Positions 33,670-63,722 of a DNA stretch of 64,000 bases are shown here, piece after piece (the first letter of the stretch is position 1; every line of letters begins with the position of its first letter). The DNA lies in the NCBI GenBank assembly GCA_030390025.1, contig JASTWF010000336.1, positions 372,001-436,000 of the forward strand. The letters are read 5' to 3'. Made by a program: the position numbers and the translations under genes. Origin of the DNA: Squalus acanthias. Taxonomy: Eukaryota. The notes under the pieces are model-generated. The model did not search any database. It was not told the DNA's origin and was given only the letters and a program-made list of their open reading frames with translations.

Positions 33670-33840
33670 TCAAATTGGAGAGGTTGCTGGAAGCTGAGAG
33701 CCCTTTCTCTCTGTCACTCTGGATCTGTCTCCTCCCTTCCCGCTCTCTGCTCTGTCTCTCATTCAAATTCCCTCCCGTTCACCTCACGCACAGTGTCTGC
33801 CTTTCTCAGCCAGGTCCGCTCCGGCTGCATAAATAAAGCT
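33670..33840 (+). promoter_or_regulatory. Displaced upstream promoter of the H4 gene at 41199
   Basis: Homologous to the promoter of H4 at 6026 (CTTTCTCAGCCAGGTCCG...GGCTGCATAAATA); 13-bp repeat CATAAATAAAGCT at 33828-33840 and 41138-41150. Confidence 0.85.
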
Positions 33841-33958
33841 CCGAAAGCTTGTAATTTTAAATAAATCGGTTGGACTATAACCTGGTGTTCCTCTTTTTGG
33901 TTGGACAGAACCCAAATTAACTGTAAATCAATTAAAACTTTAAATGAAACTTAATAAA

Positions 33959-36900
33959 TCAAATTAAAATTTGGAAGTCCGGGGTGACGATGCACTCCAG
34001 TCCCCGCGGCGCCCACCGGTCGCGGAAAAACTCAAGCGTGCCGGTGGACACCGCGTGCTCCATCTCCAGGGCCACCCGGGCGCGAACATGGCCGCGGAAG
34101 AGAGGCAGGCAATCGGGCCGAACGACCCCCCCGACCGCCCGCTGCCTGGACCAATTAATGGCTTTCTTGGCCAGGCCCAGGAGCAGTCCTACGAGGAGGT
34201 CCTCCGACCTACCCGCTCCCCTCCGCACCGGGTGACCGTAGATCAGGAGCGTGGGGCTGAAGTGCAACCAGAAATTGAGGAGCAGCCCCTTCAAATAATG
34301 AAAGAGGGGCTGCAACCTCTCACATTCAACATAAATGTGATAGACGGACTCCTCCAGGCCGCAGAAATGGCAAGCAGCCTGGGAGTCCGTAAACCTACTT
34401 AAAATCCTATTGCACGGGACTGCTCCGTGCAACACCCTCCAGGCCAAGTCCCCAATAGAACAAGGGAAGACTCCCGCGTAGAGAGCCTTCCAATGGGGAC
34501 CTTCGCCTCCGCCGGACGGCAGGATGGTACGCCAAGGCGTGTCCGGACGGCAGACGAAGATGGCAAAGTGGAGAGTGTGCAGGAGCAGCCCGTACAGGAA
34601 ACGCCTCCGTGCGGATTGAAAGGGCACGGAGGGCATTTCTCCGAGAAGGCTCAAGTGGTGAGGCGGCGGCTCCCGAGGGAGGATTCGGGGCCGGGCGCCG
34701 ATAAGGAATTCCGTCCGAACGGGGGTCAGTTCGGACGGGATCGCCCCACGTGCTTGAGCCTCCTCGACACACCTAGTGGAGACGGGGCCCAGTGCCACTT
34801 TTAGCGACTCGATGGCTTTGACCGCGAGCCGGACGTTGACCCAGGACATGCGCCTCGCCAACTCCTCCGGCGCCATCCAGCCCGCTCCTCCGCCATCGAG
34901 CAGGTCCCCGACTCTGGTCACCTTACCGGGCACAGCCCTGCCCTCCGCCAGCCAGCCGAACCCGCGGTCGTGGAGGTGCGGATTCCTGAACAGCGGCTCC
35001 CGAAGGACGGCCGCCGCTCCTGACGGGGGAGAACTGCGCTCGGAGGCGACGCTGTTCCAAACCCATAGCAGTTCCTGGTAGAAGATAGGCAGCTCCCGCA
35101 GGCTGGCACGCGTGCCACCCACTCTCACAAACAGGAGCTGCGTGTCGTAATTGAGGCCGTGCAGCTGGCGGAAGAAATACGTCGCCAGCGCACGCCACCT
35201 AGGAGGATTCTCCACGTACAGGTATCTCTGCAGCGTCTGAAGACGGAAAGTCGCCGCCTGGGTGCGAAGGCACACCAGCGCCTGACCGCCCTCCCTAAGC
35301 AGGAGACTCAAAACCGCGGCAGAGACCCAGTGCTTCCTTTTGTCCCAGAAGAAGTCGACGAGATTCTTCTGCATCTTGGCGACAAACGCAGGGGGAGGGA
35401 TCAAAGTGATCAACCGGTACCACAACATGGCGGCCACCAGCTGGTTTATGACCAGCGCTCGACCCCTGTAGGACAACACTCGGAGCAGTCCTGTCCAGCG
35501 CCCTAGGCGAGCGGTGACTTTGGCCTCCAGCTCTTGCCACTTCGCCGGCCAGGCGTCCTCGGCCGGGCTGAGGTAGACTCCCAGGTAGAGGAGGTGCGTG
35601 GTGCTCCAGGCGAAAGGCCCGAACTCCTCCGGCAGGGAGTCCACCCGCCATGGGCCCACCAGGAGTCCAGAACATTTCTCCCAGTTGATCTTGGCGGAGG
35701 ATGCGTCCGAGTAAATCTGCTGGCATTCTCGCATCCTCCGCAAGTCGACGGGATCCGTGACCGCGAGGAGCACGTCATCGGCGTAAGCCGAGAGGACCAC
35801 CTCCACGCCCGGCCCTTGCAGAGCCAGTCCCGTCAACCTCTTCCGCAAGAGGCGCAGGAAAGGCTCCACGCAAACGGCGTATAACTGACCGCACATGGGG
35901 CATCCCTGACGCACCCCCCTCCCGAAGCGAAGGGGCGCCGTCAAAGACCCGTTAACTTTAATCAGACACTCCGCGGCGGCGTACAGAAGTCGGATCCGGG
36001 CGACGAAATGCGTCCCGAACCCGAATGCGCGCAGAGTCCCGAAAAGATACTCGTGATCCACCCTGTCGAACGCCTTCTCCTGATCTAGGGAAAGGAAGGC
36101 GACCGACAGACCAGCCCTCTGGGAATGGTGGACCAGGTCCCGGACCAGATGGATGTTGTCGTGGATTGTCCGGCCCGGGACCGTGTAGGACTGGTCGGGG
36201 TGGATCATGCGGGCCAGCACGGTGCCAAGGCGAGCAGACATAGCCCTGGCGAAAATTTTGTAGTCCGTGCTGAGGAGGGAGACCGGGCGCCAGTTCTTAA
36301 GTAGGCGGAGATCGCTCTTCTTGGGCAGCAGGACGATGACCGCCCTGCGCCAAGAGAGGGGCATCTCCCCGGTCGCCAGACTTTCCCCCAGGACCCGCGC
36401 GTAGTCGTCCCCCAAGACGTCCCAGAACGCCCTGTGGAACTCCACGGTCAGCCCGTCCAGCCCCGGGGACTTGCCCCTCGAGAGCTGGCGCAGGGCGCCG
36501 GTCAGCTCCGCCAGGCTTAGCGGAGCTTCTAAATACTCGGCGCCCTCCGGGCCGACCTTCGGCAGGTTCTCCCACAAAACTCTGCGTGCATCCTCGCTGG
36601 ACGGATCCGAAGAGAACAGAGCCCCGTAATAGGCCCGGGCCTCCGCGCTGATGCCCTCCGGATCCGAGACCAGAGATCCGTCGTCGGCCAGCAGCCCCAA
36701 GAGCTGCTTACGGACCCCCCGTCTTTTTTCCAGCGAGTAGAAGAAGGGGGAGCCGCGGTCCAGGTCCCACAGGAACTGGATCCGCGACCTCACGTACGCG
36801 CCTCGGGACCCGACCAGCTGCAGGTCCTGCAGCGCGCCCTTCTTCTCTTCGTACACCTTCCGCAGGGCCGGGTCCTCGACGACTTGACCGAGACTGGACT

Positions 36901-37858
36901 CCAGGTCGAGCACTTCTTTCTCCAATCGCCCGACCCGGGCCTCCCGCCTCTTGGTCGACCCCTTCGCGTACTCCTGACAGAAGACGCGGACGTGAGCCTT
37001 GCCCATGTCCCACCATAGCCTCAAGGAGGGGAAGCCTCCCCGCTTCCTTCTCCAGTCGGCCCAGAACCGGCGAAACGAATCCCGGAACCGCACGTCCTCC
37101 AGCAGCAGGTTGTTAAAATGCCAGTACGCGGACCCCCCCCGCGCGCGCAGCGGAGCGAGCTCCGCCCACACCAGGTGGTGGTCCGTGCACGGCACCGGCC
37201 GCATGGAAGCCGCCGGAACGCAGGAGACGTACGCCCGGGAAATGTAAAGGCGGTCGATTCTGGACCTTCCTCCTCCAGACCTTACGCTCGTGAAGGCGCT
37301 GGAGTCGGGATGGAGATATCGCCAGACGTCCACCAAGTCGAAGGACCCGACCAGGTCCCGCAACTTCTCCATCGCCGCCGGGCTTCGCGGGGGACCCGAC
37401 CGGTCCCGCGCCTCGAGGGTACAATTGAAATCCCCCCCGAGGATGACGCACTCGCCCACGTCGATGGAGCCCAGAAGAGCGGACACTTCTCCGAAGAAGC
37501 GCACTTGCTGCGCACCGGGCCGGGGGGCGTACACGTTCACTAAATGGAGCGGCACGCCTCCCAGGCGAACAGTGACCTGGAGCAAGCGGCCCGGCACGTG
37601 CTCCTTGACCCTCAAGATCTCCGGCTGAAAATGCGGGGCCAGCAAGACAGCCACCCCGCAGGAATTGTTAGAGAGGTGACTCATGCTGACCCCTCCTTGC
37701 CACTCCAGGAGCCACGTGGCCTCGTCTCCCGGAACGGTGTGGGTTTCTTGCAGGAAGCACACCGCATATTTCCCGTCCCGAAGGACCGAGAAGTTATTGA
37801 ATCTACGGCGCGCCTCCCTGCTGCCGTTGATGTTGAGGCTGGCTATGGTTATCTTCAT
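33959..37858 (-). CDS. Tx1 ORF2: APE endonuclease, reverse transcriptase, C-terminal zinc finger; intact
   Basis: ASLNING, LQETH, GGDFN, SRIDR, TDH; KNWRPVSL, DQEKAFD, RQGCP, YADD; CHFCGLEESVYHIYVEC. Confidence 0.96.
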   Translation of the reverse strand: MKITIASLNINGSREARRRFNNFSVLRDGKYAVCFLQETHTVPGDEATWLLEWQGGVSMSHLSNNSCGVAVLLAPHFQPEILRVKEHVPGRLLQVTVRLGGVPLHLVNVYAPRPGAQQVRFFGEVSALLGSIDVGECVILGGDFNCTLEARDRSGPPRSPAAMEKLRDLVGSFDLVDVWRYLHPDSSAFTSVRSGGGRSRIDRLYISRAYVSCVPAASMRPVPCTDHHLVWAELAPLRARGGSAYWHFNNLLLEDVRFRDSFRRFWADWRRKRGGFPSLRLWWDMGKAHVRVFCQEYAKGSTKRREARVGRLEKEVLDLESSLGQVVEDPALRKVYEEKKGALQDLQLVGSRGAYVRSRIQFLWDLDRGSPFFYSLEKRRGVRKQLLGLLADDGSLVSDPEGISAEARAYYGALFSSDPSSEDARRVLWENLPKVGPEGAEYLEAPLSLAELTGALRQLSRGKSPGLDGLTVEFHRAFWDVLGDDYARVLGESLATGEMPLSWRRAVIVLLPKKSDLRLLKNWRPVSLLSTDYKIFARAMSARLGTVLARMIHPDQSYTVPGRTIHDNIHLVRDLVHHSQRAGLSVAFLSLDQEKAFDRVDHEYLFGTLRAFGFGTHFVARIRLLYAAAECLIKVNGSLTAPLRFGRGVRQGCPMCGQLYAVCVEPFLRLLRKRLTGLALQGPGVEVVLSAYADDVLLAVTDPVDLRRMRECQQIYSDASSAKINWEKCSGLLVGPWRVDSLPEEFGPFAWSTTHLLYLGVYLSPAEDAWPAKWQELEAKVTARLGRWTGLLRVLSYRGRALVINQLVAAMLWYRLITLIPPPAFVAKMQKNLVDFFWDKRKHWVSAAVLSLLLREGGQALVCLRTQAATFRLQTLQRYLYVENPPRWRALATYFFRQLHGLNYDTQLLFVRVGGTRASLRELPIFYQELLWVWNSVASERSSPPSGAAAVLREPLFRNPHLHDRGFGWLAEGRAVPGKVTRVGDLLDGGGAGWMAPEELARRMSWVNVRLAVKAIESLKVALGPVSTRCVEEAQARGAIPSELTPVRTEFLIGARPRILPREPPPHHLSLLGEMPSVPFQSARRRFLYGLLLHTLHFAIFVCRPDTPWRTILPSGGGEGPHWKALYAGVFPCSIGDLAWRVLHGAVPCNRILSRFTDSQAACHFCGLEESVYHIYVECERLQPLFHYLKGLLLNFWLHFSPTLLIYGHPVRRGAGRSEDLLVGLLLGLAKKAINWSRQRAVGGVVRPDCLPLFRGHVRARVALEMEHAVSTGTLEFFRDRWAPRGLECIVTPDFQILI

Positions 37859-37883
37859 CTCAGAAGCATAGTGCAACCTCTAC

Positions 37884-40041
37884 CTAACGGAGGGGAGGGA
37901 GCGCGGTCACTGACGACCGCCACTCCCTCAGCAGCCCAGTGTGGAAACTCTTGAGCCGACGCAGCTCGAGCCGGCCAACGTCCTTGTCCGCGCCCATGAT
38001 TTTAACGGCGGCGCGGACGGACACGACGAGCAGCGCCAGCTCCGACCACTTGTCGAGGGCCAGCCGGATCTTCTTGTGACGACCCTGGCTCATGGCCATA
38101 AAATCCCAGAGTTCCCCTACGGGGATGAGGGGAGAGTCGGTGAAGGGCACAAGGGCGTCCATCACCTCGCTGCCGATGGACTCCAAATCGTCCTCGATGC
38201 CCACCACCGAGTCCCCGTCCTCCTCCGGGAGGTCGTCACCGGCGGCCGACCCGTCCGTCGCACGGGGTGCAGCGAAAGGCTCGGCCGCACCGGCCGGCCC
38301 CGCCTCCGTCACGATCCCACCCCCAGGATCGGCGGCAGAGGAGTCCACCCTGGGCTCCTTCAGGGGCGCCGGGCCGGGAGGCGGCGGCGGTTCGGGCCCC
38401 CCCCCCGCCTCAGGCGCCGGAGCGACCGGAGAAACCGGGGAGAAAATAATCTCAAATTCCTCCAGTACGTCCGGCGCCAACATCAGAGACGGAGTCAGGG
38501 GGCTTTCTGTCTCCCCGCCACCAACCTCCGACCCAGCGGACTGGGGATTGTTATACTCCTCCACCAGGTCGAGCAGTCCCTGGGAGATATCTGGATTGTA
38601 AAAGGCGGGCTCGGCTTCAGCCTCTTTGGCCTCGCCCGCCCCAGTCCCCAGGACGCCCGACCCGGCGAGGAGCAACGGTTCCGGAACTACATTTCCCTCC
38701 GCGGGTTGTTCCGCGCCCCCCCCCCCCCATGGGCAGGGTCTCTTCCCCATCCCCGGGAGGCACAGGTCGGACAGACTCGGCTGTCTCACCCTCCCGAGGG
38801 ACAGGCGACCCCCGCCGCTCGCGCGCGACGATGACGGTGGTGGGGTGGGGCGCAGCACCCGCGGCGGGCGACGACTCCCCTTCCGCGGAGGGACCTTCCT
38901 CCTCGCAGTCCTCCTCCTGGGGGTCGAGCTTCCTTTTTAACATATTGGGGCCCGGAGAGGGGGAGGCCTCCATGTCTGCTGGGGCCTCCCTCTCTGCCCC
39001 CTTCCGATGACTGGGTTTCTTGGGCCCCTCGGGCCCGAGCCCGGCCGCAGGTCTTGATTCAGCTGCCTCAGCAGTTGCGGTCACGGTCACGGGCCCGGGC
39101 ACGAGGACCCCCCCAGTCTCATGCGTCCCGACCAACTCCGCGATGTACTCGGGCGTGAGTTCGGTCAACTCGGATGTTTCCTCCGCGAGGGGATCCGCCC
39201 TTAGGTGTTTATTTTTCCTACGCGCCTTCCTTCCCCCCGGACGCTCTCCCTCCTCCCCGCCGGAGGCCGTGGTGGTGTTGGCCTCCGATTTCGACCGCGC
39301 ATCCGTCGCCGTCGACGCGCGGACAGTATCAGGGGGAGGGGGGGCGGCAGCGCCAACCCTGGCCGCGCCAGGTGTCGTGGCGGCCTTGGAGGCGGGGCAG
39401 TTTTTGCGGACGTGCCCCACCTCCTTACAGGCGTAGCACCGCACGCTGTCCGAGGTCCAGAAGACGCGGTGGGCGGTCCCCCCGTGGAGCACCGTGAACG
39501 CGCCATCCGCGTCCTCCTCCCGCGCCAGCCGGACGAAAAGCTGGCGCCGGAAGGAGAAGACGTGCCGAAGGCTGGCTTCCCGGAAGCCGAGCGGGATGGG
39601 TGTGATCCCCGACCTCACCTCCCCCAGTTGACGTAGGTGGGGGAGGAGGAGCTCACCCGGAACAAAGGGCGGGACGTTGGAAACCACAATCCTTTGCGCG
39701 GTGGCCTCAAGGGGGTCCACCGGCAGGAAGGTCCCGCCCACGGTGAGCCCCTTCTCGATGACCAGGGACACCGCCCGCTCCGTCCCCAGGAAGAACACAG
39801 CCTTGCCGTACATTTTAGAGGCGGCGACGATGGCTGAAGGGCCGACAACCCCAGCCATGGCTTTTACGCACGCCTCTATTGTCATATTGGGGTGAGTGCA
39901 GCTCTTGACCCCATTCTTCCTCGTAAGGAGGGTAAAAGGTGACGGGGTAACAGGAGGACTCGTGGCTGAGGCCGTGGCCGCGGCTGCCACGCTTGCGTAT
40001 GTCCTCGCTGCCCCCGCCACCGGCGAAGATGTAGTCGCCAT
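37884..40041 (-). CDS. Tx1 ORF1 (zinc knuckle), frameshifted in a C13 run at 38716-38728
   Basis: ORFs 38617-40071 and 37884-38858 join to match the intact ORF1 at 57507-59654; CYACKEVGHVRKNC. Confidence 0.9.
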
Positions 40042-41034
40042 GATGGGTTGGTCCTTAAGGGCTACACTCACCCCAAGTCACAGGCCTGAAGGTGTTAATG
40101 GCCTCTGGTTTTTTGTTTTTGTTTTCCCCTGAGCAGAGGGAGCTCTTAAATTGAAGGCACACCTCTCCCTTTGTATGAATTAATTAGGAGAGGGGCCTTC
40201 TCCCCTCTGCTCAATAGGTACTTAATTAAAAGATAATGAGGTGCCTCTTAGAGAGAGAGGCAGAGAGAGACAAGAGACAAAGAGAGAGAGAGAGGGGGTG
40301 GGAAGGAGGGAAGCCGCAAGGGCAGGGTCGCCACTCAGGATGGTGGGTGGGTGGGTGTTGGCAGGGGGGTGCACTCTCCGATGTAATAAAAGTCTTTGGT
40401 GGTGGTCTTCTGGTGGGGGGAGAAGATGTCTTCACCTGGGATAGCTGGAGATGCCCAGGCTCAGTCCTGCACCAGGTCTTAACGATGCCCAATAAGATTA
40501 AATTAATTGGGGACTTCACCTAGGCAGCTCCAGATGTCCCAGGCCAGGCAATGGGAAAGGGGTGTTTAATATGGTGTGTGCGGCCTAGCTTTTACAGAAG
40601 CCACACACACACACACACACACACACCCCTTGGATGTTCCGGCCCTCTTCTTTTTCTTCTTTCCTCCCCCCACCTACAAAACAAAGTCTCTGGGAGAGTG
40701 CACCAGAATCACACCCACCTGTAGATGATGTTCTTTCCTTCCTCCCTCCTTCCAAACAGTTGATGTTTGTTGTTGGTATGTTTTCTCCCCTCTCTCCCTC
40801 TCCTAAAATGGAGGCCAATTGAGGAGGCAGTGTGGAAAGACCTCTCCTCTGATGTTTGATGGCCTTGGCCTTCTTTTCTTTTCTTTCCTCTCTCCTCTCC
40901 TGTCCTCTCTCTCCAGGCACCTCAGTTGTGGATGTGTTGGTTGTTGGTGGTGGCCTGCTGTCTGGTCTCCTTCTCCTTCTCCTCTTCCTGCTCACAGAGA
41001 CCACTCTGCTGCTGCTGCTGCTCCTCCGTCAGCA

Positions 41035-41137
41035 GCTCCGAAAGCTTGTAAAATTAAATAAATCTGTTGGACTATAACCTGGTGTTGTGCGACTTCTCAT
41101 TTTTGTCCACCCCAGTCCAACACCGGCATCTCCACAT
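41035..41137 (+). mobile_element. 3' half of hammerhead repeat plus its tail (Penelope/retrozyme-like), Tx1-A target
   Basis: GCTCC-GAAA-GCTT-GTAA...TTGGACTATAACCTGGTGTTGTGCGACTTCTCA; same family as 48888-49009 and 63649-63722. Confidence 0.8.
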
Positions 41138-41189
41138 CATAAATAAAGCTGTAAGGCGAGAGATTCTCATTTAGCGACGATTTGAGTGA

Positions 41190-41510
<321 letters not shown>

Positions 41511-47247: not shown

Positions 47248-47673
<426 letters not shown>

Positions 47674-48887: not shown

Positions 48888-48896
48888 TATTTGAAA

Positions 48897-48938
48897 TCAC
48901 AAGCTTTCGGAGCTATCGATCGCCCCTTCCTCAGGTGA
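48897..48938 (-). ncRNA. Minimal type I hammerhead motif in a 96-bp tandem unit
   Basis: Minus strand TCAC-CTGAGGA-A-GGGGC-GATCGATA-GCTCC-GAAA-GCTT-GTGA. Confidence 0.8.
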
Positions 48939-53758: not shown

Positions 53759-53789
53759 GACAAGAGCATAGTGCAACCTCTACCTTACT

Positions 53790-55877
53790 CTAACGGGAGG
53801 AGGGAGCGCGGCCGCTAGTCGACCGCCACTCCCTTCCAAGCCCAGCGAGGAAATTCTGGATCCGACGCCGCTCGGCCAGGCCCACGCCCCCGTCCGCGCC
53901 CATGGTTTTGACTGCGGCGCGGACGGAGCAAACGAGCAGCGCCAGATCCGACCATTTATCGATGGCCAGCCGGATTATATCCTGGCGACCCTGGCCCATG
54001 GCCACAAAGTCCCGGAGTTCCACAACGGGGATGAGGGGGGACCCGGAGGAGGGCACGAGGGCATCCGCCGCCTCACTGGCGACGGATTCCATATCATCCT
54101 CAGTGTCCTCCGCCGGGTCCCCGTCCTCCTCCGGGGGGTCGCCATCGGCCAGCCCTACCTCTGCCCCGATCCCACCCCCAGGATCGGCAGCAGAGGAGTC
54201 CTCCCTGGGCTCCTCCAGAGGCGCCGGGTCAGGAAGCGGCGGCGGCTCGGGGCCCCCCTCCGCCCCCGGCACCGGGGTGCACAGGGAAACCGGGGAGCAC
54301 ATTAGTGCCAGTTCCCTCAACAACCCCGGCGCCAGCGTCGCAGACGGAGTCAGGGGGCCTTCCCCTTCACCGCCACCATCCTCCGACCCAGCGGACCAGG
54401 TACCCTGGTTATATTGCTCAACCAGGTCGAGCAGTGCCTGGGAGTGGTCCTGACCGTACACGGCGGGCTCTGCCTCATCGGCCTCGCCCGCCCCGGTCCC
54501 CAGGATGCCCGACCTGGCGAGAAACAACGGATCAGCGTAACTCCCCACCGCGGGTAGTTCCGCGGCCCCCCCCATGAGCAGGGCCTCTCCCCCATCCCCG
54601 GGAGGCACAGGCTGGACAGACTCATCTGTCATGCCCTCCCGGGGGACAGGCGGCCCCTGCCGGATCTCGGTGATGGTGTCGGTGGGGGGGGGCGCAGCAC
54701 CCGCGGCGGGCAACGACTCCCCTTGCGAGGGGGGACCCCGTTCCTCACGGTCCTCCCCCTCATCCAGGATGTCGCGCCTCCTTTTCGAAGAGGAGGGACA
54801 CGAAGGTTGGGAGACCTCCATGCATACCGAGGCCTCCACCTCCGCTCCCCCCTGTCGATCGGTCTGCTCGGGGGTCCCGGGCCCGGTCACGGCCGCAGGT
54901 CTCGATTTTGCCGCCTTGGCGGATGCGGCCGCAGGCCCGGGCACAAGGTCCCTCGCATTCTCGAACTCCGCCGCCACCCGCGCAAGGTGTAGGGGCGTAA
55001 GCTCGGGTAAGTCATCATATATGTGAAGGGGACCCGCCTGAAGGTGTTTGCTTTTCCTCCGCGCCTTCCTTCCAGTCGGACGCTCCCCCTCCCCTTCGCC
55101 GGATGCCGCGACGGCGTTGACCTCCGGCGTCGACCGCGCATCGGGTGTCGCAGACGTGCGGACAGAAACAGGGGGAGGAGCGGCGGCGGCGCCAGCCTTG
55201 GCCGCCTCAGATGCTTTGGCGGCCTTGGAGGCGGGGCAGTTCTTTCTTATGTGCCCCACCTCCTTACAGGCATGGCACCGCACACCGTCCGACGTCCAGA
55301 AGACGCGGTAGGCGGTCCCCTCGTGTGTTATGCTAAATGCGCCTTCCGTGTCTTCCTCCCGCGCCAGCTGGATAAACAGCTGGCGCCGGAAGGAGAAGAC
55401 GTGCCGGAGGCTGGCCTCCCTGCAGCCGAGCGGGATCGGATTAATCCCCGACCTCACCTCCCCCAGTTGACGTAGGTGGGGGAGGAGGAGCTCAACCGGA
55501 ACAAATGGCGGGACATTCGATAGTATGAGTCGCTGCTCGGTGGCCTCGAGCGGATCCACCGGCAGGAAGGTCCCGCCCACGGTGAGCCCCTCGGTGACGG
55601 CCAGGGACACCGCCCGCTCCGACCGCAGGAAGAACACAGCCTTACCGTACATTTTAGAGGCCGCAACGATGGCTGAGGGGCCGACTACCCCAGCCATGGC
55701 TTTGACGCAAGCCTCTATGGTCATGTTGGGGTGAGTGTAGCTCTTCACCCCCAGCTTTTTTGTCAATAGCCTGAAAGGCGACGGGGCAGCAGAAGCAGCG
55801 GGACCAGCTGTGGCCGTGGCTGCCACACCCGCGTACGACCTTGCTTGCCCCGCCGCCGGCGAAGATGTGCTCGCCAT
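53790..55877 (-). CDS. Tx1-B ORF1, intact
   Basis: MASTSSPAAGQ...; CHACKEVGHIRKNC zinc knuckle. Confidence 0.9.
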   Translation of the reverse strand: MASTSSPAAGQARSYAGVAATATAGPAASAAPSPFRLLTKKLGVKSYTHPNMTIEACVKAMAGVVGPSAIVAASKMYGKAVFFLRSERAVSLAVTEGLTVGGTFLPVDPLEATEQRLILSNVPPFVPVELLLPHLRQLGEVRSGINPIPLGCREASLRHVFSFRRQLFIQLAREEDTEGAFSITHEGTAYRVFWTSDGVRCHACKEVGHIRKNCPASKAAKASEAAKAGAAAAPPPVSVRTSATPDARSTPEVNAVAASGEGEGERPTGRKARRKSKHLQAGPLHIYDDLPELTPLHLARVAAEFENARDLVPGPAAASAKAAKSRPAAVTGPGTPEQTDRQGGAEVEASVCMEVSQPSCPSSSKRRRDILDEGEDREERGPPSQGESLPAAGAAPPPTDTITEIRQGPPVPREGMTDESVQPVPPGDGGEALLMGGAAELPAVGSYADPLFLARSGILGTGAGEADEAEPAVYGQDHSQALLDLVEQYNQGTWSAGSEDGGGEGEGPLTPSATLAPGLLRELALMCSPVSLCTPVPGAEGGPEPPPLPDPAPLEEPREDSSAADPGGGIGAEVGLADGDPPEEDGDPAEDTEDDMESVASEAADALVPSSGSPLIPVVELRDFVAMGQGRQDIIRLAIDKWSDLALLVCSVRAAVKTMGADGGVGLAERRRIQNFLAGLGREWRSTSGRAPSSR

Positions 55878-57506
55878 ACTGAGGTGGTATAAAGGGCTAC
55901 ACCCACCCCAAGTCACAGGCCGGGTGATGTTTAAGTGGCCTTGGGTTTTTTTTGTCTTTTCCCCCGAGCAGAGGGGGTTGTTTTGAGAAAAAGAAGGCAC
56001 ACCTCTCCCTTTTATGATTGGAATTGGGAGTGGCCTTCTCCCCTCTGCTCAATTGGGTAATAAATAAGGTTTGAGGTGCCTCATTAGAGAGAGGCAGAGA
56101 GAGAGAGAGAGAGAGAGGGGGTGGGAAGGAGGAAAGGGGGAAGGCCGCACGGGCCTATTCGCCACTCAGGATAGTGGGTGGGTGGGTGCCTCCTTGGGGG
56201 GGGGGGGGCACTCTTCGATGATAAATAAAGTCTTTGTTGATGTTCTTCTGGTGGGGGGAGAAGATGTCTTCACCTGGGAAAAAATAAAGCTGGAGATGCC
56301 CAGGCTCAGTCTACAACCAGGTCTTAACAATGTTCTAAAATGTGAAGCAATAGGCAAGGGGTGCTTGTTGATGGTGTGTGTGGCCAAGTTGTTAGCAAGA
56401 GCCACACACACTCACACACACCCCTTGCTATCCTGGTCTTCTCCTTCTTCTTTCCTCCCCCCACCTCAAATACAAAGTCTTTTGGAGAGTGCCCTTTTTA
56501 ACACCCACCTCTCGATGTTGTTTTCCTTCTCGAAGGCTCGCTCTCCCTCCTTCCAAGCAGATGTTGGTCTTGTTCTCCCCTCTCTCCCTCTCTCGTAATG
56601 GAGACCAGTTGGGGAGGCAGTGATGGAAAGGCTTCCCTCTGTTGCTGTTGCTGGTCTCCTCTCTCTCCTCTCCTCTCTCACCTCAGCAGCAGTCGTGGTT
56701 GTAGCTGTAGCTGCAGGCGTGGTGGAGGTGGAAAAGGTCTCCACTCTGTCCTTCGTGGCTCCTTCTCCTTCTAGGCACAGAGAAAAGAGACCTCTCCTTT
56801 CCCCTCCTCTTCTCAGCAAACGGCGCTCACCCGTTCACGCAGCACCGTGTTGAGCTGAGTCCCTCGCAGCCTCAGCCTCTGCCTCCGTCTCCGTCTGTCC
56901 TCGCCTGGGACCGCACTCGGTGTGTGTGTGTGTGTGTGTGGCTTCTGTAAAAGCTAGGCCGCACACACCATATTAAACATCCCTTTCCCATTGCCTGACC
57001 TGGGACAGCTGGAGCTGCCTAGGTGAAGTCCCCAATTCAAACAACATCTAATTGGGCATCGTTAAGACCTGGTGCAGGACTGAGCCTGGGCATCTCCAGC
57101 TATCCCAGGTGAAGACATCTTCTCCCCCCACCAGAAGACCACCACCAAAGACTTTTATTACATCGGAGAGTGCACCCCCCCTGCCAACACCCACCCACCC
57201 ACCATCCTGAGTGGCGACCCTGCCCTTGCGGCTTCCCTCCTTCCCACCCCCCCTCTCTCTCTCTCTCTTTGTCTCTTGTCTCTCTCTGCCTCTCTCTCTA
57301 AGAGGCACCTCAATCTATTTTTATTAAGTACCTATTGAGCAGAGGGGAGAAGGTCCCTCTCCCAATTCAATCAACTAAAGGGAGAGGTGTGCCTTCAATT
57401 TAAGAGCTCCCTCTGCTCAGGGGAAAACAGAAACAAAAAACCGAGGCCATTAACACCTTCAGGCCTGTGACTTGGGGTGAGTGTAGCCCTTAAGGACCAA
57501 CCCATC

Positions 57507-59654
57507 ATGGCGACCACATCTTCGCCGGTGGCGGGGGCAGCGAGGACATACGCAAGCGTGGCAGCCGCGGCCACGGCCGCAGCCACGAGTCCTCCTGTTA
57601 CCCCGTCACCTTTTACCCTCCTTACGAGGAAGAATGGGGTCAAGAGCTACACTCACCCCAATATGACAATAGAGGCGTGCGTAAAAGCCATGGCTGGGGT
57701 TGTCGGCCCTTCAGCCATCGTCGCCGCCTCTAAAATGTACGGCAAGGCTGTGTTCTTCCTGGGGTCGGAGCGGGCGGTGTCCCTGGCCATCGAGAAGGGG
57801 CTCACCGTGGGCGGGACCTTCCTGCCGGTGGACCCCCTTGAGGCCACCGCGCAAAGGATTGTGGTTTCCAACGTCCCGCCCTTTGTTCCGGGTGAGCTCC
57901 TCCTCCCCCACCTACGTCAACTGGGGGAGGTGAGGTCGGGGATCACACCCATCCCGCTCGGCTTCCGGGAAGCCAGCCTTCGGCACGTCTTCTCCTTCCG
58001 GCGCCAGCTTTTCGTCCGGTTGGCGCGGGAGGAGGACGCGGATGGCGCGTTCACGGTGCTCCACGGGGGGACCGCCCACCGCGTCTTCTGGACCTCGGAC
58101 GGCGTGCGGTGCTACGCCTGTAAGGAGGTGGGGCACGTCCGCAAAAACTGCCCCGCCTCCAAGGCCGCCACGACACCTGGCGCGGCCAGGGTTGGCGCCG
58201 CCGCCCCCCCTCCCCCTGATACTGTCCGCGCGTCGACGGCGACGGATGCGCGGTCGAAATCGGAGGCCAACACCACCACGGCCTCCGGCGGGGGGGAGGG
58301 AGAGCGTCCGGGGGGAAGGAAGGCGCGTAGGAAAAATAAACACCTAAGGGCGGATCCCCTCGTGGAGGAAACATCCGAGTTGACCGAACTCACGCCCGAG
58401 TACATCGCGGAGTTGATCGGGACGCATGAGACTGGGGGGGTCCTCGTGCCCGGGCCCGTGACCGCAACTGCTGAGGCAGCTAAATCAAGACCTGCGGCCG
58501 GGCTCGGGCCCGAGGGGCCCAAGAAACCCAGTCGTCGGAAGGGGGCAGAGAGGGAGGCCCCAGCAGACATGGAGGCCTCCCCCTCTCCGGGCCCCAATAT
58601 GTTAAAAAGAAAGCTAGACCCCCAGGAGGAGGACTTCGAGGAGGAAGGTCCCTCCGCAGAAGGGGAGTCGTCGCCCGCCACGGGTGCTGCGCCCCACCCC
58701 ACCACCGTCATTGTCGCACGCGATCGGCAGGGGTCGTCTGTCCCTCGGGAGGGTGAGACAGCCGAGTCTGTCCGACCTGTGCCTCCCGGGGATGGGGAAG
58801 AGACCCTGCCCGTGGGGGGGGGCGCGGAACAACCCGCGGAGGGAAATGTAGTTCCGGAACCGTTGCTCCTCGCCGGGTCGGGCGTCCTGGGGACTGGGGC
58901 GGGCGAGGCCAAAGAGGCTGAAGCCGAGCCCGCCTTTTATAACCCAGATATCTCCCAGGGACTGCTCGACCTGGTGGAGGAGTGTAACAATCCCCAGCCC
59001 GCTGGGTCGGAGGTTGGTGGCGGGGAGACAGAAAGCCCCCTGACTCCGTCTCTGATGTTGGCGCCGGACGTACTGGAGGAATTTGAGATTATTTTCTCCC
59101 CGGTTTCTCCGGTCGCTCCGGCGCCTGAGGCGAGGGGGGGCCCCGAACCGCCGCCGCCTCCCGGCCCGGCGCCCCTGAAGGAGCCCAGGGTGGACTCCTC
59201 TGCCACCGATCCTGGGGGTGGGATCGTGACGGAGGCGGGGCCGGCCGGTGCGGCCGAGCCGTTCGCTGCACCCCGTGTGACGGACGGGTTGGCCGCCGGT
59301 GACGACCTCCCGGAGGAGGACGGGGACTCGGTGTTGGGCACCGAGGACGATTTGGAGTCCATCAGCAGCGAGGCGATGGACGCCCTCGTGCCCTTCACCG
59401 ACTCTCCCCTCATCCCCGTAGGGGAACTCCGGGATTTTATGGCCGTGAGCCAGGGTCGTCACAAGAAGATCCGGTTGGCCCTCGACAAGTGGTCGGAGCT
59501 GGCGCTGCTCGTCGTGTCCGTCCGCGCCGCTGTTAAAATCATGGGCGCGGACAAGGACGTTGGCCGGCTCGAGCTGCGTCGGCTCAAGAGTTTCCACACT
59601 GGGCTGCTGAGGGAGTGGCGGTCGTCGGTGACCGCGCTCCCTCCCCTCCGTTAG
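57507..59654 (+). CDS. Tx1-A ORF1, intact
   Basis: MATTSSPVAG...; CYACKEVGHVRKNC. Confidence 0.92.
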   Translation: MATTSSPVAGAARTYASVAAAATAAATSPPVTPSPFTLLTRKNGVKSYTHPNMTIEACVKAMAGVVGPSAIVAASKMYGKAVFFLGSERAVSLAIEKGLTVGGTFLPVDPLEATAQRIVVSNVPPFVPGELLLPHLRQLGEVRSGITPIPLGFREASLRHVFSFRRQLFVRLAREEDADGAFTVLHGGTAHRVFWTSDGVRCYACKEVGHVRKNCPASKAATTPGAARVGAAAPPPPDTVRASTATDARSKSEANTTTASGGGEGERPGGRKARRKNKHLRADPLVEETSELTELTPEYIAELIGTHETGGVLVPGPVTATAEAAKSRPAAGLGPEGPKKPSRRKGAEREAPADMEASPSPGPNMLKRKLDPQEEDFEEEGPSAEGESSPATGAAPHPTTVIVARDRQGSSVPREGETAESVRPVPPGDGEETLPVGGGAEQPAEGNVVPEPLLLAGSGVLGTGAGEAKEAEAEPAFYNPDISQGLLDLVEECNNPQPAGSEVGGGETESPLTPSLMLAPDVLEEFEIIFSPVSPVAPAPEARGGPEPPPPPGPAPLKEPRVDSSATDPGGGIVTEAGPAGAAEPFAAPRVTDGLAAGDDLPEEDGDSVLGTEDDLESISSEAMDALVPFTDSPLIPVGELRDFMAVSQGRHKKIRLALDKWSELALLVVSVRAAVKIMGADKDVGRLELRRLKSFHTGLLREWRSSVTALPPLR

Positions 59655-59679
59655 GTAGAGGTTGCACTATGCTTCTGAG

Positions 59680-62600
59680 ATGAAGATAACCATAGCCAGC
59701 CTCAACATCAACGGCAGCAGGGAGGCGCGCCGTAGATTCAATAACTTCTCGGTCCTTCGGGACGGGAAATATGCGGTGTGCTTCCTGCAAGAAACCCACA
59801 CCGTTCCGGGAGACGAGGCCACGTGGCTCCTGGAGTGGCAAGGAGGGGTCAGCATGAGTCACCTCTCCAACAATTCCTGCGGGGTGGCTGTCTTGCTGGC
59901 CCCGCATTTTCAGCCGGAGATCTTGAGGGTCAAGGAGCATGTGCCGGGCCGCTTGCTCCAGGTCACTGTTCGCCTGGGAGGCGTGCCGCTCCATTTAGTG
60001 AACATGTACGCCCCCCGGACCGGTGCGCAGCAAGTCCGCTTCTTCGGAGAAGTGTCCGCTCTTCTGGGCTCCATCGACGTGGGCGAGTGCGTCATCCTCA
60101 GGGGGGATTTCAATTGTACCCTCGAGGCGCGGGACCGGTCGGGTCCCCCGCGAAGCCCGGCGGCGATGGAGAAGTTGCGGGACCTGGTCGGGTCCTTCGA
60201 CTTGGTGGACGTCTGGCGAAATCTCCATCCCGACTCCAGCGCCTTCACGAGCGTGAGGTCTGGAGGAGGAAGGTCCAGAATCGACCGCCTTTACATTTCC
60301 CGGGCGTACGTCTCCTGCGTTCCGGCGGCTTCCATGCGGCCGGTGCCGTGCACGGACCACCACCTGGTGTGGGCGGAGCTCGCTCCGCTGCGCGCGCGGG
60401 GGGGGGTCCGCGTACTGGCATTTTAACAACCTGCTGCTGGAGGACGCGCGGTTCCGGGATTCGTTTCGCCGATTCTGGGCCGACTGGAGAAGGAAGCGGG
60501 GAGGCTTCCCCTCCTTGAGGCTATGGTGGGACGTGGGCAAGGCTCACGTCCGCGTCTTCTGTCAGGAGTACGCGAAGGGGTCGACCAAGAGGCGGGAGGC
60601 CCGGGTCGGGCGATTGGAGAAAGAAGTGCTCGACCTGGAGTCCCGTCTCGGTCAGGTCGTCGAGGACCCGGCCCTGCGGAAGGTGTACGAAGAGAAGAAG
60701 GGCGCGCTGAAGGACCTGCAGCTGGTCGGGTCCCGAGGCGCGTACGTGAGGTCGCGGATCCAGTTCCTGCGGGACCTGGACCGCGGCTCCCCCTTCTTCT
60801 ACTCGCTGGAAAAAAGACGGGGGGTCCGTAAGCAGCTCTTGGGGCTGCTGGCCGACGACGGATCTCTGGTCTCGGATCCGGAGGGCATCAGCGCGGAGGC
60901 CCGGGCCTATTACGGGGCTCTGTTCTCTTCGGATCCGTCCAGCGAGGATGCGCGCAGAGTTTTGTGGGAGGACCTGCCGAAGGTCGGCCCGGAGGGCGCC
61001 GAGAATTTAGAAGCTCCGCTAAGCCTGGCGGAGCTGACCGGCGCCCTGCGCCAGCTCTCGAGGGGCAAGTCCCCGGGGCTGGACGGGCTGACCGTGGAGT
61101 TCCACAGGGCGTTCTGGGACGTCTTGGGGGACGACTACACGCGGGTCCTGGGGGAAAGTCTGGCGACCGGGGAGATGCCCCTCTCTTGGCGCAGGGCGGT
61201 CATCGTCCTGCTGCCCAAGAAGGGCGATCTCCGCCTAATTAAGAACTGGCGCCCGGTCTCCCTCCTCAGCACGGACTACAAAATTTTCGCCAGGGCTATG
61301 TCTGCTCGCCTTGGCACCGTGCTGGCCCGCATGATCCACCCCGACCAGTCCTACACGGTCCCGGGCCGGAGCATCCACGATAACATCCCTCTGGTCCGGG
61401 ACCTGGTCCACCATTCCCAGAGGGCTGGTCTGTCGGTCGCCTTCCTTTCCCTGGATCAGGAGAAGGCGTTCGACAGGGTGGATCACGAGTATCTTTTCGG
61501 GACTCTGCGCGCATTCGGGTTCGGGACGCATTTCGTCGCCCGGATCCGACTTCTGTACGCCGCCGCGGAGTGTCTCATTAAAGTTAACGGGTCTTTGACG
61601 GCGCCCCTTCGCTTCGGGAGGGGGGTGCGTCAGGGATGCCCCATGTCCTGTCAGTTATACGCCGTTTGCGTGGAGCCTTTCCTGCGCCTCTTGCGGAAGA
61701 GGTTGACGGGACTGGCTCTGCAAGGGCCGGGCGTGGAGGTGGTCCTCTCGGCGTACGCCGATGACGTGCTCCTCGCGGTCACGGATCCCGTCGACTTGCG
61801 GAGGATGCGAGAATGCCAGCAGATTTACTCGGACGCATCCTCCGCCAAGATCAACTGGGAGAAATGTTCTGGACTCCTGGTGGGCCCATGGCGGGTGGAC
61901 TCCCTGCCGGAGGAGTTCGGGCCTTTCGCCTGGAGCACCACGCACCTCCTCTACCTGGGAGTCTACCTCAGCCCGGCCGAGGACGCCTGGCCGGCGAACT
62001 GGCAAGAGCTGGAGGCCAAAGTCACCGCTCGCCTAGGACGCTGGACAGGACTGCTCCGAGTGTTGTCCTACAGGGGTCGAGCGCTGGTCATAAACCAGCT
62101 GGTGGCCGCCATGTTGTGGTACCGGTTGATCACTTTGATCCCTCCCCCTGCGTTTGTCGCCAAGATGCAGAAGAAGCTCGTCGACTTCTTCTGGGACAAA
62201 AGGAAGCACTGGGTCTCTGCCGCGGTTTTGAGTCTCCCGCTTAGGGAGGGCGGTCAGGCGCTGGTGTGCCTTCGCACCCAGGCGGCGACTTTCCGTCTTC
62301 AGACGCTGCAGAGATACCTGTACGTGGAGAATCCTCCTAGGTGGCGTGCGCTGGCGACGTATTTCTTCCGCCAGCTGCACGGCCTCAATTACGACACGCA
62401 GCTCCTGTTTGTGAGAGTGGGTGGCACGCGTGCCAGCCTGCGGGAGCTGCCTGTCTTCTACCAGGAACTGCTATGGGTTTGGAACAGCGTCGCCTCCGAG
62501 CGCAGTTCTCCCCCGTCAGGAGCGGCGGCCGTCCTTCGGGAGCCGCTGTTCAGGAATCCGCACCTCCACGACCGCGGGTTCGGCTGGCTGGCGGAGGGCA

Positions 62601-63580
62601 GGGCTGTGCCCGGTAAGGTGACCAGAGTCGGGGACCTGCTCGATGGCGGAGGAGCGGGCTGGATGGCGCCGGAGGAGTTGGCGAGGCGCGTGTCCTGGGT
62701 CAACGTCCGGCTCGCGGTCAAAGCCATCGAGTCGCTAAAAGTGGCACTGGGCCCCGTCTCCACTAGGTGTGTCGAGGAGGCTCAAGCACGTGGGGCGATC
62801 CCGTCCGAACTGACCCCCGTTCGGACGGAATTCCTTATCGGCGCCCGGCCCCGAATCCTCCCTCGGGAGCCGCCGCCTCACCACTTGAGCCTTCTCGGAG
62901 AAATGCCCTCCGTGCCCTTTCAATCCGCACGGAGGCGTTTCCTGTACGGGCTGCTCCTGCACACTCTCCACTTTGCCATCTTCGTCTGCCGTCCGGACAC
63001 GCCTTGGCGTACCATCCTGCCGTCCGGCGGAGGCGAAGGTCCCCATTGGAAGGCTCTCTACGCGGGAGTCTTCCCTTGTTCTATTGGGGACTTGGCCTGG
63101 AGGGTGTTGCACGGAGCAGTCCCGTGCAATAGGATTTTAAGTAGGTTTACGGACTCCCAGGGTGCTTGCCATTTCTGCGGCCTGGAGGAGTCCGTCTATC
63201 ACATTTATATTGAGTGTGAGAGGTTGCAGCCCCTCTTTCATTATTTGAAGGGGCTGCTCCTCAATTTCTGGTTGCACTTCAGCCCCACGCTCCTGATCTA
63301 CGGTCACCCGGTGCGGAGGGGAGCGGGTAGGTCGGAGGACCTCCTCGTTGGACTGCTCCTGGGCCTGGCCAAGAAAGCCATTAATTGGTCCAGGCAGCGG
63401 GCGGTCGAGGGGGTCGTTCGGCCCGATTGCCTGCCTCTCTTCCGCGGCCATGTTCGCGCCCGGGTGGCCCTGGAGATGGAGCACGCGGTGTCCGCCGGCA
63501 CGCTTGAGTTTTTCCGCGACCGGTGGGCGCCGCGGGGACTGGAGTGCATCGTCACCCCGGACTTCCAAATTTTGATTTGA
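59680..63580 (+). CDS. Tx1-A ORF2, one frameshift in a G run at 60398-60406
   Basis: ORFs 59662-60426 and 60515-63580 match the intact ORF2 of copy 1; G9 versus G8. Confidence 0.92.
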
Positions 63581-63683
63581 TTTGTTAAGTTTCATTTAAA
63601 GTTTTAATTGATTTACAGTAAATTTGTGTTTGTCCAACCAAAAAGAGCAACACCAGGTTATAGTCCAACAGATTTATTTAATT

Positions 63684-63722
63684 TTACAAGCTTTCGAAGC
63701 AGTTCGCTCCTTCGTCACGTAA
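63684..63722 (-). ncRNA. Hammerhead motif variant (core C3 changed to G)
   Basis: Minus strand TTAC-GTGACGA-A-GGAGC-GAACT-GCTTC-GAAA-GCTT-GTAA. Confidence 0.65.

What the first reader, a model, noticed from the sequence alone, without database searches (positions are those of the whole stretch)
33838..63722. Tx1 retrotransposon family that appears to target a hammerhead-ribozyme repeat
Seen: both family-A copies (33890-41034 minus; 49010-63648 plus) have the same junctions. In element orientation the 3' end ...CCAACCAAAAAGAG(G/C) abuts AACACCAGGTTATAGTCCAAC, and the 5' end follows ...CAAGCTTTCGGAGC. The target is a ~96-bp repeat whose opposite strand folds as a minimal type I hammerhead; the 5' junction falls at the stem II loop. 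Established: Tx1-clade APE elements are often sequence-specific (snRNA, tRNA, 5S genes, microsatellites, DNA transposons), and Penelope-like elements and metazoan retrozymes carry minimal hammerheads. Inference: this is a site-specific LINE parasitising a ribozyme-bearing retroelement. I do not recall such a target being described, but cannot check, and there are only two insertions here.
Basis: partly seen in the sequence, partly recalled or inferred. Interest (0 to 1): 0.92.

Follow-up and report, generated by a model that had tools for sequence, protein, structure and literature searches.

The report
Tx1 LINE that targets Penelope elements
A young Tx1-type jumping gene in this large vertebrate genome inserts at one exact spot in the tail of another retroelement, a Penelope-like element that carries a small hammerhead ribozyme; this appears to be a new target for a family already known to be site-specific.

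Summary
Both window copies are APE+RT LINEs, and ORF2 is 50% identical over its full length to Xenopus Tx1 ORF2. Both have the reported junctions.

In a genome-wide sample queried with LINE-internal sequence only, 42 of 42 distinct 3' ends abut AACACCAGG(T)TATA.

The target is not really a 96-bp repeat. It is the 3' untranslated tail of a Penelope-like element (PLE), which encodes RT plus a GIY-YIG-type C-terminus on the opposite strand. The insertion point lies 39 nt past the cleavage site of the PLE's minimal hammerhead. All 20 of 20 PLE copies sampled are unoccupied there, reading ...CCTGGTGTT|GTGCGAC.

The downstream 52-mer matches the subtype of its host PLE in 11 of 11 cases. The upstream 52-mer is one subtype in 18 of 18 cases, even inside PLEs of another subtype. 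So it is probably a leader carried by the LINE, not a true 52-bp duplication. Truncated copies show 14–32-bp duplications.

The element also forms full-length (~7.17 kb) and satellite-like arrays.

Nothing shows that the ribozyme itself is recognised or used.

Tx1 families that target other transposons are already published. Five literature searches found no PLE target, but Repbase and Dfam could not be checked.

Verdict: a real, well-supported new member of a known kind, of moderate interest.

The parts
33838..33889 (-). 52-nt target piece on the 3' side of LINE copy A. It is the 'AAAATTAC' subtype and is not followed by any PLE body.
33890..41034 (-). LINE copy A, 7145 bp. ORF2 (33959-37858) is open at 1299 aa with APE, RT and zf-RVT. 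ORF1 is split into 474-aa and 288-aa frames.
41035..41086 (-). 52-nt piece on the 5' side of copy A ('AATTTTAC' subtype). It differs from the 3' piece at 3 of 52 positions.
41087..41140 (+). Long-form PLE 3' tail (GTGCGACTTCTCAT...CATCTCCACATCAT), in PLE sense.
   Evidence: The same tail ends 7 of 20 unoccupied PLE copies.
48888..48957 (-). Extra partial PLE/retrozyme-like unit upstream of copy B. It holds a complete minimal hammerhead of the 'TCAC/GTGA' subtype plus the PLE tail start. This gives the local 96-bp period.
48958..49009 (+). 52-nt 5' piece of copy B ('GAAATCAC' subtype). Read here as a leader carried by the LINE.
   Evidence: The 5' census gave 18 of 18 of this subtype.
49010..49298 (+). 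LINE copy B, 5' part. Positions 49012-49027 are identical to the sense 5' half of the subtype-2 hammerhead.
49303..56920 (-). Nested related LINE ('family B'). It has ORF1 with CCHC, APE and RT, and no 52-mer at its ends. It is not part of the targeting system.
56920..63648 (+). LINE copy B, remainder. ORF1 is 715 aa. ORF2 is split into 248-aa and 801-aa frames.
63649..63700 (+). 52-nt target piece on the 3' side of copy B ('AATTTTAC' subtype). It is continuous with the host PLE.
63701..64000 (-). Host PLE on the opposite strand. It holds the 5' half of the hammerhead (here GTGACGA, with G at core position 3), the 3' UTR and the end of the PLE ORF. It continues past the window end.

Best explanation
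Family A is a recently active Tx1-clade non-LTR retrotransposon. It integrates by target-primed reverse transcription at one fixed site in the 3' tail of Penelope-like elements (PLEs), antisense to the PLE.

The endonuclease nicks the PLE-sense strand at ...TATAACCTGGTGTT^GTGCGAC.... This is 39 nt downstream of the cleavage site of the PLE's minimal hammerhead and 14-54 nt from the PLE's 3' end.

The 3' junction is invariant. The 5' junction depends on the copy.
- 5'-truncated copies and a leaderless variant join 14-32 nt downstream. This gives ordinary target-site duplications.
- Full-length RNA carries a 52-nt 5' leader homologous to the target, up to the helix II loop. The new cDNA end therefore probably joins by homology. 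This produces what looks like a 52-bp duplication.

Because each insertion regenerates the target, the element piles up head-to-tail in ~7.17-kb arrays. Its 3' ends have also been amplified into satellite-like arrays.

Shown: element class, fixed 3' junction, native unoccupied targets, independent hosts, and the subtype pattern of the two 52-mers. Inferred: which strand is nicked first, the homology-mediated 5' joining, and that the hammerhead matters only because it keeps the target conserved and abundant.
For: Element class: Exo_endo_phos E=1.4e-11, RVT_1 E=9e-36 and zf-RVT in ORF2; zf-CCHC in ORF1. ORF2 is 50% identical over 100% of its length to Xenopus Tx1 ORF2.

Site specificity: a query of LINE-internal sequence only returned 30 loci with 42 distinct 3' ends. 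All 42 are followed by 1-2 variable bases and then AACACCAGG(T)TATA. After that, 11 continue into PLE hammerhead and body, 7 into the next full-length LINE, 20 into 5'-truncated LINE units, 3 into an inverted PLE, and 1 into unknown sequence.

The target exists without the LINE: 20 of 20 PLE 3' ends fetched read CCTGGTGTT|GTGCGACTTCTC... uninterrupted.

Independent hosts: the flanking PLE pieces range from 81 to more than 1574 bp, are 78-98% identical to each other, and lie on many contigs.

A clean small example is L010. A PLE fragment with its own 13-bp duplication contains a 247-bp LINE 3' piece, inserted exactly between GTCGCAC and AACACC with a 14-bp duplication.

The host is a PLE. A 542-aa ORF on the opposite strand has an RVT_1 match and a C-terminus with VVY...YIG spacing. 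Its homologues carry RVT_1 + DUF8422 + HTH_animal, and some carry GIY-YIG.

Leader: the 3' 52-mer subtype matches the downstream PLE subtype in 11 of 11 cases. The 5' 52-mer is the GAAATCAC subtype in 18 of 18 cases with at least 45 nt present. Copy B and the C644 copy have a subtype-2 5' piece but a subtype-1 3' target.
Against: The genome search scores only the 40 best of 1283-2015 first-look candidates, so only the youngest copies were sampled. Older copies could differ.

Many of the 42 junctions sit in arrays whose units share one truncation point. Those arose by DNA-level amplification and are not independent insertions.

The first 14 nt of target are present at every 3' end, so from sequence alone they could be counted as part of the element.

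Copy A has no PLE body beyond its 3' 52-mer, and the whole composite is flanked by a 13-bp direct repeat. This fits either insertion into a 105-bp PLE fragment or an off-target event with carried flanks. It is unresolved.

One of four full-length copies checked at both ends (C10) has matching subtypes. That also fits a plain 45-bp duplication.

No biochemical evidence exists for the nick site or its strand.
Confidence: 0.88

Rival explanations
1. True 52-bp target-site duplication. The endonuclease, or a hairpin in the DNA, cuts the second strand at the helix II loop, 52 nt from the first nick. Both 52-mers are then host DNA.
For: A 52-mer flanks both ends of both window copies. The boundary is sharp at GGAGC| in most full-length copies. 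The C10 copy has identical subtype at both ends over 45 nt.
Against: In 3 of 4 full-length copies checked at both ends, the two 52-mers are of different PLE subtypes (window A, window B, and C644). The 5' piece is subtype 2 in 18 of 18 cases, whereas the 3' pieces follow the host in 11 of 11. Truncated or leaderless copies show 14-, 15-, 17- and 32-nt duplications instead.
Confidence: 0.2
2. No targeting at all. The 52-mer is an intrinsic terminal repeat or shared 3' module of the LINE, and the PLE association is incidental.
For: Every LINE 3' end carries at least 14 nt of it. The 5' copy does seem to travel with the element.
Against: All 20 of 20 PLE tails sampled hold the 52-mer with no LINE. 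Sequence beyond the 3' 52-mer is PLE hammerhead and body in 11 of 17 full 52-mers, and another LINE in 5 of the rest. The subtype of the 3' 52-mer covaries with the PLE beyond it in 11 of 11 cases. PLE tail lies on the other side.
Confidence: 0.03
3. One or a few ancestral insertions were spread by segmental or tandem DNA duplication, so the shared junctions are not independent.
For: There are arrays with identical truncation points and periods of ~332, ~445 and ~763-790 bp, and full-length arrays of ~7.17 kb. L004/L005, L019/L027 and L023/L026 have the same flank length.
Against: Flanking PLEs are truncated at about a dozen different lengths, belong to three subtypes, and differ by up to 22%, while the LINE ends are 94-100% identical. 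Both short and long PLE tails occur upstream. Junction dinucleotides vary (GC, TC, GG, TG).
Confidence: 0.05

Closest known systems
Tx1L of Xenopus laevis, inserted in the piggyBac-type element Tx1D (as described in PMC4494074, passages read)
   Same: ORF2 has the same architecture and is 50% identical over its full length. Both are sequence-specific LINEs that live inside another transposon.
   Different: The host here is a retroelement of the Penelope class, not a DNA transposon. The insertion is antisense, next to a hammerhead. There is a 52-nt 5' leader homologous to the target. The Tx1L junction details were not read here.
Crocodilian Tx1-Mar (Mariner-N4_AMi), Tx1-9_AMi (Harbinger) and Tx1-8_Crp/Tx1-4_AMi (LTR retrotransposons) (PMC4494074, passages read)
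   Same: These are Tx1 families with a preference for a defined place in another transposon family. Tandem insertions that sandwich the duplicated target are reported there for the partner SINE.
   Different: Specificity here is stricter in the sample (42 of 42, against the paper's >20% criterion). The target class is different. The copies are young (many 100% identical, against 85-87% to consensus).
R2 elements of 28S rDNA (as cited in PMC4494074; otherwise recalled)
   Same: Target-derived sequence at the RNA ends is thought to aid precise joining. Both depend on a conserved multicopy target.
   Different: R2 has a restriction-like endonuclease and its own HDV-like ribozyme in sense orientation. 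Here the endonuclease is APE-type. The only ribozyme motif belongs to the host element on the opposite strand. No HDV-like or hammerhead match was found on the LINE strand.
Minimal hammerheads of metazoan Penelope-like elements (PMC4209133, passages read)
   Same: The target's motif has the published traits: helix I of 4-5 bp, a longer helix II with a bulged base at its 5' end, no real helix III but a palindromic AGCU, and location in the PLE terminal repeat or tail.
   Different: Nothing new about the ribozyme itself. What is new is that a LINE uses the adjoining sequence as its landing site.

Membership tests
Tx1 clade of non-LTR retrotransposons | ORF2 with an N-terminal APE-type endonuclease followed by reverse transcriptase | tested here: met
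   Exo_endo_phos at residues 6-227 (E=1.4e-11), RVT_1 at 512-761 (E=9e-36) and zf-RVT at 1121-1181
Tx1 clade of non-LTR retrotransposons | Closer to Tx1 of Xenopus than to other LINE clades | tested here: inconclusive
   50% identity over 100% of the query to YTX2_XENLA, and hits named Transposon TX1 in Takifugu. No tree with reference L1, R1 or other clades was built, so formal clade placement is not shown.
Tx1 clade of non-LTR retrotransposons | ORF1 with a CCHC zinc knuckle (that this is typical of the clade is recalled, not checked) | tested here: met
   zf-CCHC in ORF1 of copies A and B and of family B
Sequence-specific LINE | Most copies share the same flanking target. The published criterion is >20% of flanks (PMC4494074). 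| tested here: met
   42 of 42 3' ends and 19 of 19 readable 5' flanks carry target sequence. Only the best 40 candidates of each search were sampled.
Penelope-like element (the host) | Single ORF with RT followed by a C-terminal GIY-YIG endonuclease | tested here: inconclusive
   RVT_1 scores 23.2 bits in L031 (below the 29.6 cut-off) and 31.1 bits in L032. Pfam finds no GIY-YIG in the last 140 aa. A VVY-x12-YIG motif is visible. Homologues at 41-45% identity over 97-99% of the query carry PF01541. Atlas neighbours are RVT_1 + GIY-YIG clusters (a lead only).
Penelope-like element (the host) | Hammerhead motif in the terminal repeat, variable 3' tail, 5' truncation, and inverted or tandem copies | tested here: met
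   Hammerhead about 250 bp after the ORF stop. Short (13) and long (7) tails in 20 copies. Flank lengths 81 to >1574 bp, and inverted arms of 581 bp at 99.7% identity. The tail signature is described in PMC11167929 (abstract and main text part 1 read).
Type I minimal hammerhead ribozyme | Conserved core CUGANGA ... GAAA ... UH, with paired helices I and II | tested here: met
   Among 23 unique variants: core CTGANGA in 21 (2 have G at position 3); bulged A in 23; helix II 5 of 5 paired in 22; helix I 4 bp in 20; TTAC/GTAA versus TCAC/GTGA is a compensatory change; loop 2 varies from 3 to 9 nt
Type I minimal hammerhead ribozyme | Match to the curated Rfam hammerhead models | tested here: not met
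   No hammerhead family matched at gathering score over the window or at E<=10 around two copies. Minimal forms lack helix III, so this is expected, but it remains a miss.
Type I minimal hammerhead ribozyme | Self-cleavage | not testable with these tools
   PMC4209133 reports only low in vitro activity for such motifs, and only as dimers (passages read)

The most novel reading that the evidence does not exclude
Integration is guided at both ends by RNA-DNA homology to the host element, not by endonuclease specificity alone. This would involve the 52-nt 5' leader and possibly a read-through 3' end. The family would then be a natural LINE with 'homology arms', retargetable by swapping the leader. 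In addition, the intact PLE hammerhead 39 nt upstream of each insert would trim PLE read-through transcripts into defined antisense LINE RNAs. That would couple the two elements' regulation.
Probability: 0.15. Interest if true: 0.8.

Novelty: new member of a known kind. Interest (0 to 1): 0.5.

Why it matters
Site-specific LINEs are the natural models for safe, programmable insertion of long DNA. This one is young: many 261-nt 3' ends are 100% identical, and one window copy has an open 1299-aa ORF2. It is abundant, and its target is a precisely defined 14-52-nt site. That makes it a tractable system for asking how an APE-type endonuclease and terminal RNA homology together set the integration site.

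It also adds a third retroelement class, the Penelope-like elements, to the list of transposons that Tx1 elements colonise. It shows that a conserved ribozyme-bearing tail can serve as a safe haven. It explains some large tandem arrays in this genome.

For annotation, the 52-mer and hammerhead next to these LINEs belong to the host PLE and should not be read as a LINE-encoded ribozyme.

Tried and rejected
- Rfam found no hammerhead or HDV-like hit, over the whole window at gathering score or over two junction regions at E<=10. A LINE-sense ribozyme across the 5' junction was looked for by eye. The LINE starts with CTGACGAAGGAGCAGC, but no GCTCC-GAAA partner follows within the 5' UTR read, so this idea was rejected.
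Short stretches were fetched instead, so the censuses rest on 16-42 junctions each, not on all copies.
- Pfam on the PLE C-terminus gave no family.
- Sequencing runs: four coded runs hold LINE contigs, many at 99% identity. Their RNA status is only a guess and all are assembled contigs, so nothing can be said about expression, transcript starts or the leader. Two of the four 3'-end fetches aimed by distance (L104, L106) missed the junction and were dropped.
- One 5' flank (L089) is masked with N and was dropped from the count.
- Family B was checked as a possible second targeting system for family A's 5' UTR. Its 16 sampled 3' flanks are mixed: 7 continue into what looks like another family-B 5' end, and the others are unrelated or CA-rich. 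The idea was not pursued.
- Earlier notes of this scan were searched by words and by sequence and returned nothing.
Full report
**1. What is at the coordinates**

- Copy A is at 33890-41034 on the minus strand. Copy B is at 49010-63648 on the plus strand.
- Both end ...CCAACCAAAAAGAG(G/C) next to AACACCAGGTTATAGTCCAAC, and both start directly after ...CAAGCTTTCGGAGC.
- The same 52-nt piece therefore lies on both sides of both copies.
- Its 19-nt core occurs 4 times in the window, against 0.03 expected.
- Copy A aligns to copy B at 98% over 6.8 kb. Copy B is split at 49298/56920 by a related LINE on the other strand.

ORFs and domains:
- ORF1 has a CCHC knuckle.
- ORF2 has Exo_endo_phos, RVT_1 and zf-RVT.
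- Copy A has an open 1299-aa ORF2 but a split ORF1. Copy B has a 715-aa ORF1 but a split ORF2.
- ORF2 is 50% identical over 100% of its length to the Xenopus laevis Tx1 149-kDa protein.

A tree with other LINE clades was not built. Tx1 membership therefore rests on architecture and on this similarity.

**2. What the target is**

The window lies in a 3.7-Gb, 3882-contig genome.

A first search used the LINE 3' end plus flank. Homology continued far beyond 96 bp downstream of the LINE.
- The flanks are pieces of one repeat family, between 81 and more than 1574 bp long.
- They are 78-98% identical to each other and are often arranged as inverted pairs. In L020 the arms are 581 bp at 99.7% identity.

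Extending two loci by 10 kb showed a 542-aa reading frame on the strand opposite to the LINE.
- RVT_1 scores 23.2 bits in L031 (below Pfam's cut-off) and 31.1 bits in L032.
- The C-terminus reads ...VVYLIRCSKGCSRAWYIGET...R..H...E...N.
- Pfam does not call GIY-YIG on that part.
- Homologues with 41-45% identity over 97-99% of the query carry RVT_1 + DUF8422 + HTH_animal + GIY-YIG.
- Language-model neighbours have the same domain set (a lead only).

This ORF, the features in sections 3 and 4, and two earlier notes on the same genome together identify the host as a Penelope-like element (PLE).

**3. The hammerhead**

About 250 nt after the PLE stop codon lies ...TTAC CTGA(N)GA A GGAGC (loop) GCTCC GAAA GCTT GTAA....

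Among 23 distinct variants found in the loci held:
- The core CTGANGA is kept in 21. Two have G at position 3, including the copy next to window copy B.
- The bulged A is present in 23, and GAAA-GCTT in 23.
- Helix II is fully paired in 22. Helix I has 4 contiguous pairs in 20.
- Position 7 and loop 2 (3-9 nt) vary freely.
- Helix I shows one compensatory change: TTAC/GTAA in 14 variants against TCAC/GTGA in 6.

These are the published traits of PLE minimal hammerheads: short helix I, longer helix II with a bulged base at its 5' end, and no helix III apart from a small palindrome, so that the motif is thought to act as a dimer (PMC4209133, passages read).

Rfam's models do not match. Self-cleavage is untested, and the paper reports only low activity in vitro for such motifs.

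**4. Is the LINE site-specific?**

To avoid circularity I repeated the search with 261 nt of LINE-internal 3' sequence, with no flank. There were 1626 first-look candidates; 40 were scored and 30 loci were returned.

These loci hold 42 distinct 3' ends after removing overlaps. All 42 are followed by one or two variable bases (GC, TC, GG, TG) and then AACACCAGG(T)TATA.

What follows the target sequence:

| Continuation | Count |
|---|---|
| Full 52-mer, then the rest of the hammerhead and PLE body | 11 |
| 45-52 nt, then the 5' end of another full-length LINE | 7 |
| 14-32 nt, then a 5'-truncated LINE (arrays) | 20 |
| Inverted PLE end | 3 |
| 46 nt, then unidentified sequence (L054) | 1 |

The reverse test was also done. 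Of 40 top matches to the PLE 3' region, I fetched the first 20 other than the query itself.
- All 20 read ...TATAACCTGGTGTT|GTGCGACTTCTC... with no LINE.
- They end either shortly after (13 copies) or with a longer tail ...CATCTCCACATCAT (7 copies).
- Variable tails are a known PLE signature (PMC11167929, abstract and first part of the main text read).

So the 52-mer is native PLE sequence, and the LINE sits inside it. Its 3' end lies 39 nt downstream of the hammerhead cleavage site, counted on the sequence, in antisense orientation.

The insertion leaves the PLE ORF and a complete hammerhead on one side, and 52 nt plus the tail on the other.

Limits: only the best-scoring, hence youngest, copies were seen. 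The arrays are not independent events.

**5. How the ends are made**

5' census: 20 flanks were fetched and one is masked by N. Of the 19 readable:
- 18 have at least 45 nt of the 52-mer directly before the LINE.
- One (L085) has 17 nt, followed by a different and longer 5' UTR.
- Upstream of the 52-mer lies either the 3' end of another LINE (14 cases) or the PLE tail in reverse complement, long or short (5 cases).

The two 52-mers behave differently.
- Three PLE subtypes can be told apart by the helix I strands.
- The 3' 52-mer always matches the subtype of the PLE body beyond it: 11 of 11 in the unbiased sample, and the same by eye in the rows.
- The 5' 52-mer is the GAAATCAC subtype in 18 of 18 cases.

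Four full-length copies were examined at both ends (the two non-window pairs are inferred to be one copy each from spacings of about 7.1 kb):

| Copy | 5' 52-mer subtype | 3' 52-mer subtype |
|---|---|---|
| Window copy B | 2 | 1 |
| C644 | 2 | 1 |
| Window copy A | 1 | 3 |
| C10 | 2 | 2 |

A plain 52-bp target duplication predicts identical subtypes. I therefore read the 5' 52-mer as a leader carried in the LINE RNA, through which the finished cDNA joins the target by homology.

Copies without the leader show ordinary duplications.
- L010: 14 nt. Here a PLE fragment with its own 13-bp duplication hosts a 247-bp LINE 3' piece.
- Other cases: 15, 17 and 32 nt.

The order of nicks and the homology step are inference from the usual target-primed reverse transcription scheme.

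**6. Arrays**

- Full-length copies recur at spacings of 7158-7188 bp on six contigs, with one 52-mer between units.
- Short 3' pieces form arrays with periods near 332 bp (14 or more units on C8), 445 bp and 763-790 bp.
- Units within an array share one truncation point. These arrays therefore grew by DNA-level amplification after an insertion.
- Tandem insertions that sandwich the duplicated target are described for Tx1-mobilised SINEs (PMC4494074).

**7. Comparison with what is known, and novelty**

Tx1-clade families are known for target preference (PMC4494074, passages read; PMC4640811, passages). Published targets include:
- U2 and U5 snRNA genes, 5S rDNA, microsatellites and satellites.
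- Other transposons: Tx1D (piggyBac), Mariner-N4_AMi, Harbinger, and some LTR retrotransposons.

I found no report of a Penelope-like element or a hammerhead-bearing repeat as a Tx1 target. Five full-text searches were run (listings only for the hits). Not seen: Fig. 3 and the supplements of PMC4494074, Repbase, and Dfam. Prior annotation therefore cannot be excluded.

The preprint that links animal retrozymes to PLE terminal repeats (10.64898/2026.07.22.740005, abstract only) fits the 96-bp mini-unit upstream of copy B.

**8. Verdict**

- The thing is a new member, with a new target class, of the known kind 'sequence-specific Tx1 LINE'.
- Nothing ties the ribozyme's chemistry to the LINE. The likeliest link is that the ribozyme region keeps the neighbouring sequence conserved and abundant.
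- The leader-by-homology feature and the youth of the family make it a good experimental model.
- Interest is moderate.

Noticed in passing
window 49303-56920 (minus strand): A second, related LINE ('family B') is nested in the 5' UTR of copy B. It is 92% identical to family A in ORF2 and 75-78% in the ORF1/5' part, and has a long repeat-rich 3' UTR. Its 5' end abuts a (GT)n run at about 56920-56945. Of 16 genomic 3' flanks sampled, 7 continue into the same sequence, which looks like another family-B 5' end (tandem copies). The others are unrelated or CA-rich. It may be a microsatellite-targeting Tx1.
   Followed up: partly
window 33828-33840 and 41138-41150: The whole composite (52-mer, copy A, 52-mer, PLE tail) is flanked by a 13-bp direct repeat, CATAAATAAAGCT. 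No PLE body lies beyond the 3' 52-mer. Either a 105-bp PLE fragment was hit, or a LINE RNA with carried flanks landed off-target beside a histone gene. This is unresolved.
   Followed up: partly
window 49012-49027 (also copy A, near 41020-41033): The LINE begins with CTGACGAAGGAGCAGC. This is identical to the sense 5' half (core, bulge, helix II strand, loop start) of the subtype-2 PLE hammerhead, and it is inverted relative to the adjoining 52-mer. Most genomic copies read CTGACTGAGGAGC instead. It may be a relic of an inverted PLE junction at the family's origin.
   Followed up: partly
window 2934-48462, several places: The window is a histone gene cluster. There are seven histone 3' stem-loops (Rfam) and a tRNA at 43049-43120. 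The ORF starting at 41199 reads like histone H4 (my reading, not tested). Copy A's PLE tail ends about 60 bp upstream of it.
   Followed up: no
G000:C8:141706316-141710905 (L051, L056, L057); C18:15297777-15300351 (L060-L062): Satellite-like arrays built from the last 300-770 bp of the LINE plus 15-17 nt of target. Units carry different 3' UTR variants and different junction dinucleotides, which suggests a higher-order repeat structure.
   Followed up: partly
L020 (flank 1-581 versus 714-1294), L025, L039, L053: Host PLEs often occur as head-to-head inverted pairs, with breakpoints in or near the hammerhead. Arms are up to 581 bp at 99.7% identity.
   Followed up: no
L089 (G000:C1505:364102-364282): The stretch upstream of one array member reads N (an assembly gap or withheld stretch), at the start of a full-length LINE array.
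   Followed up: no
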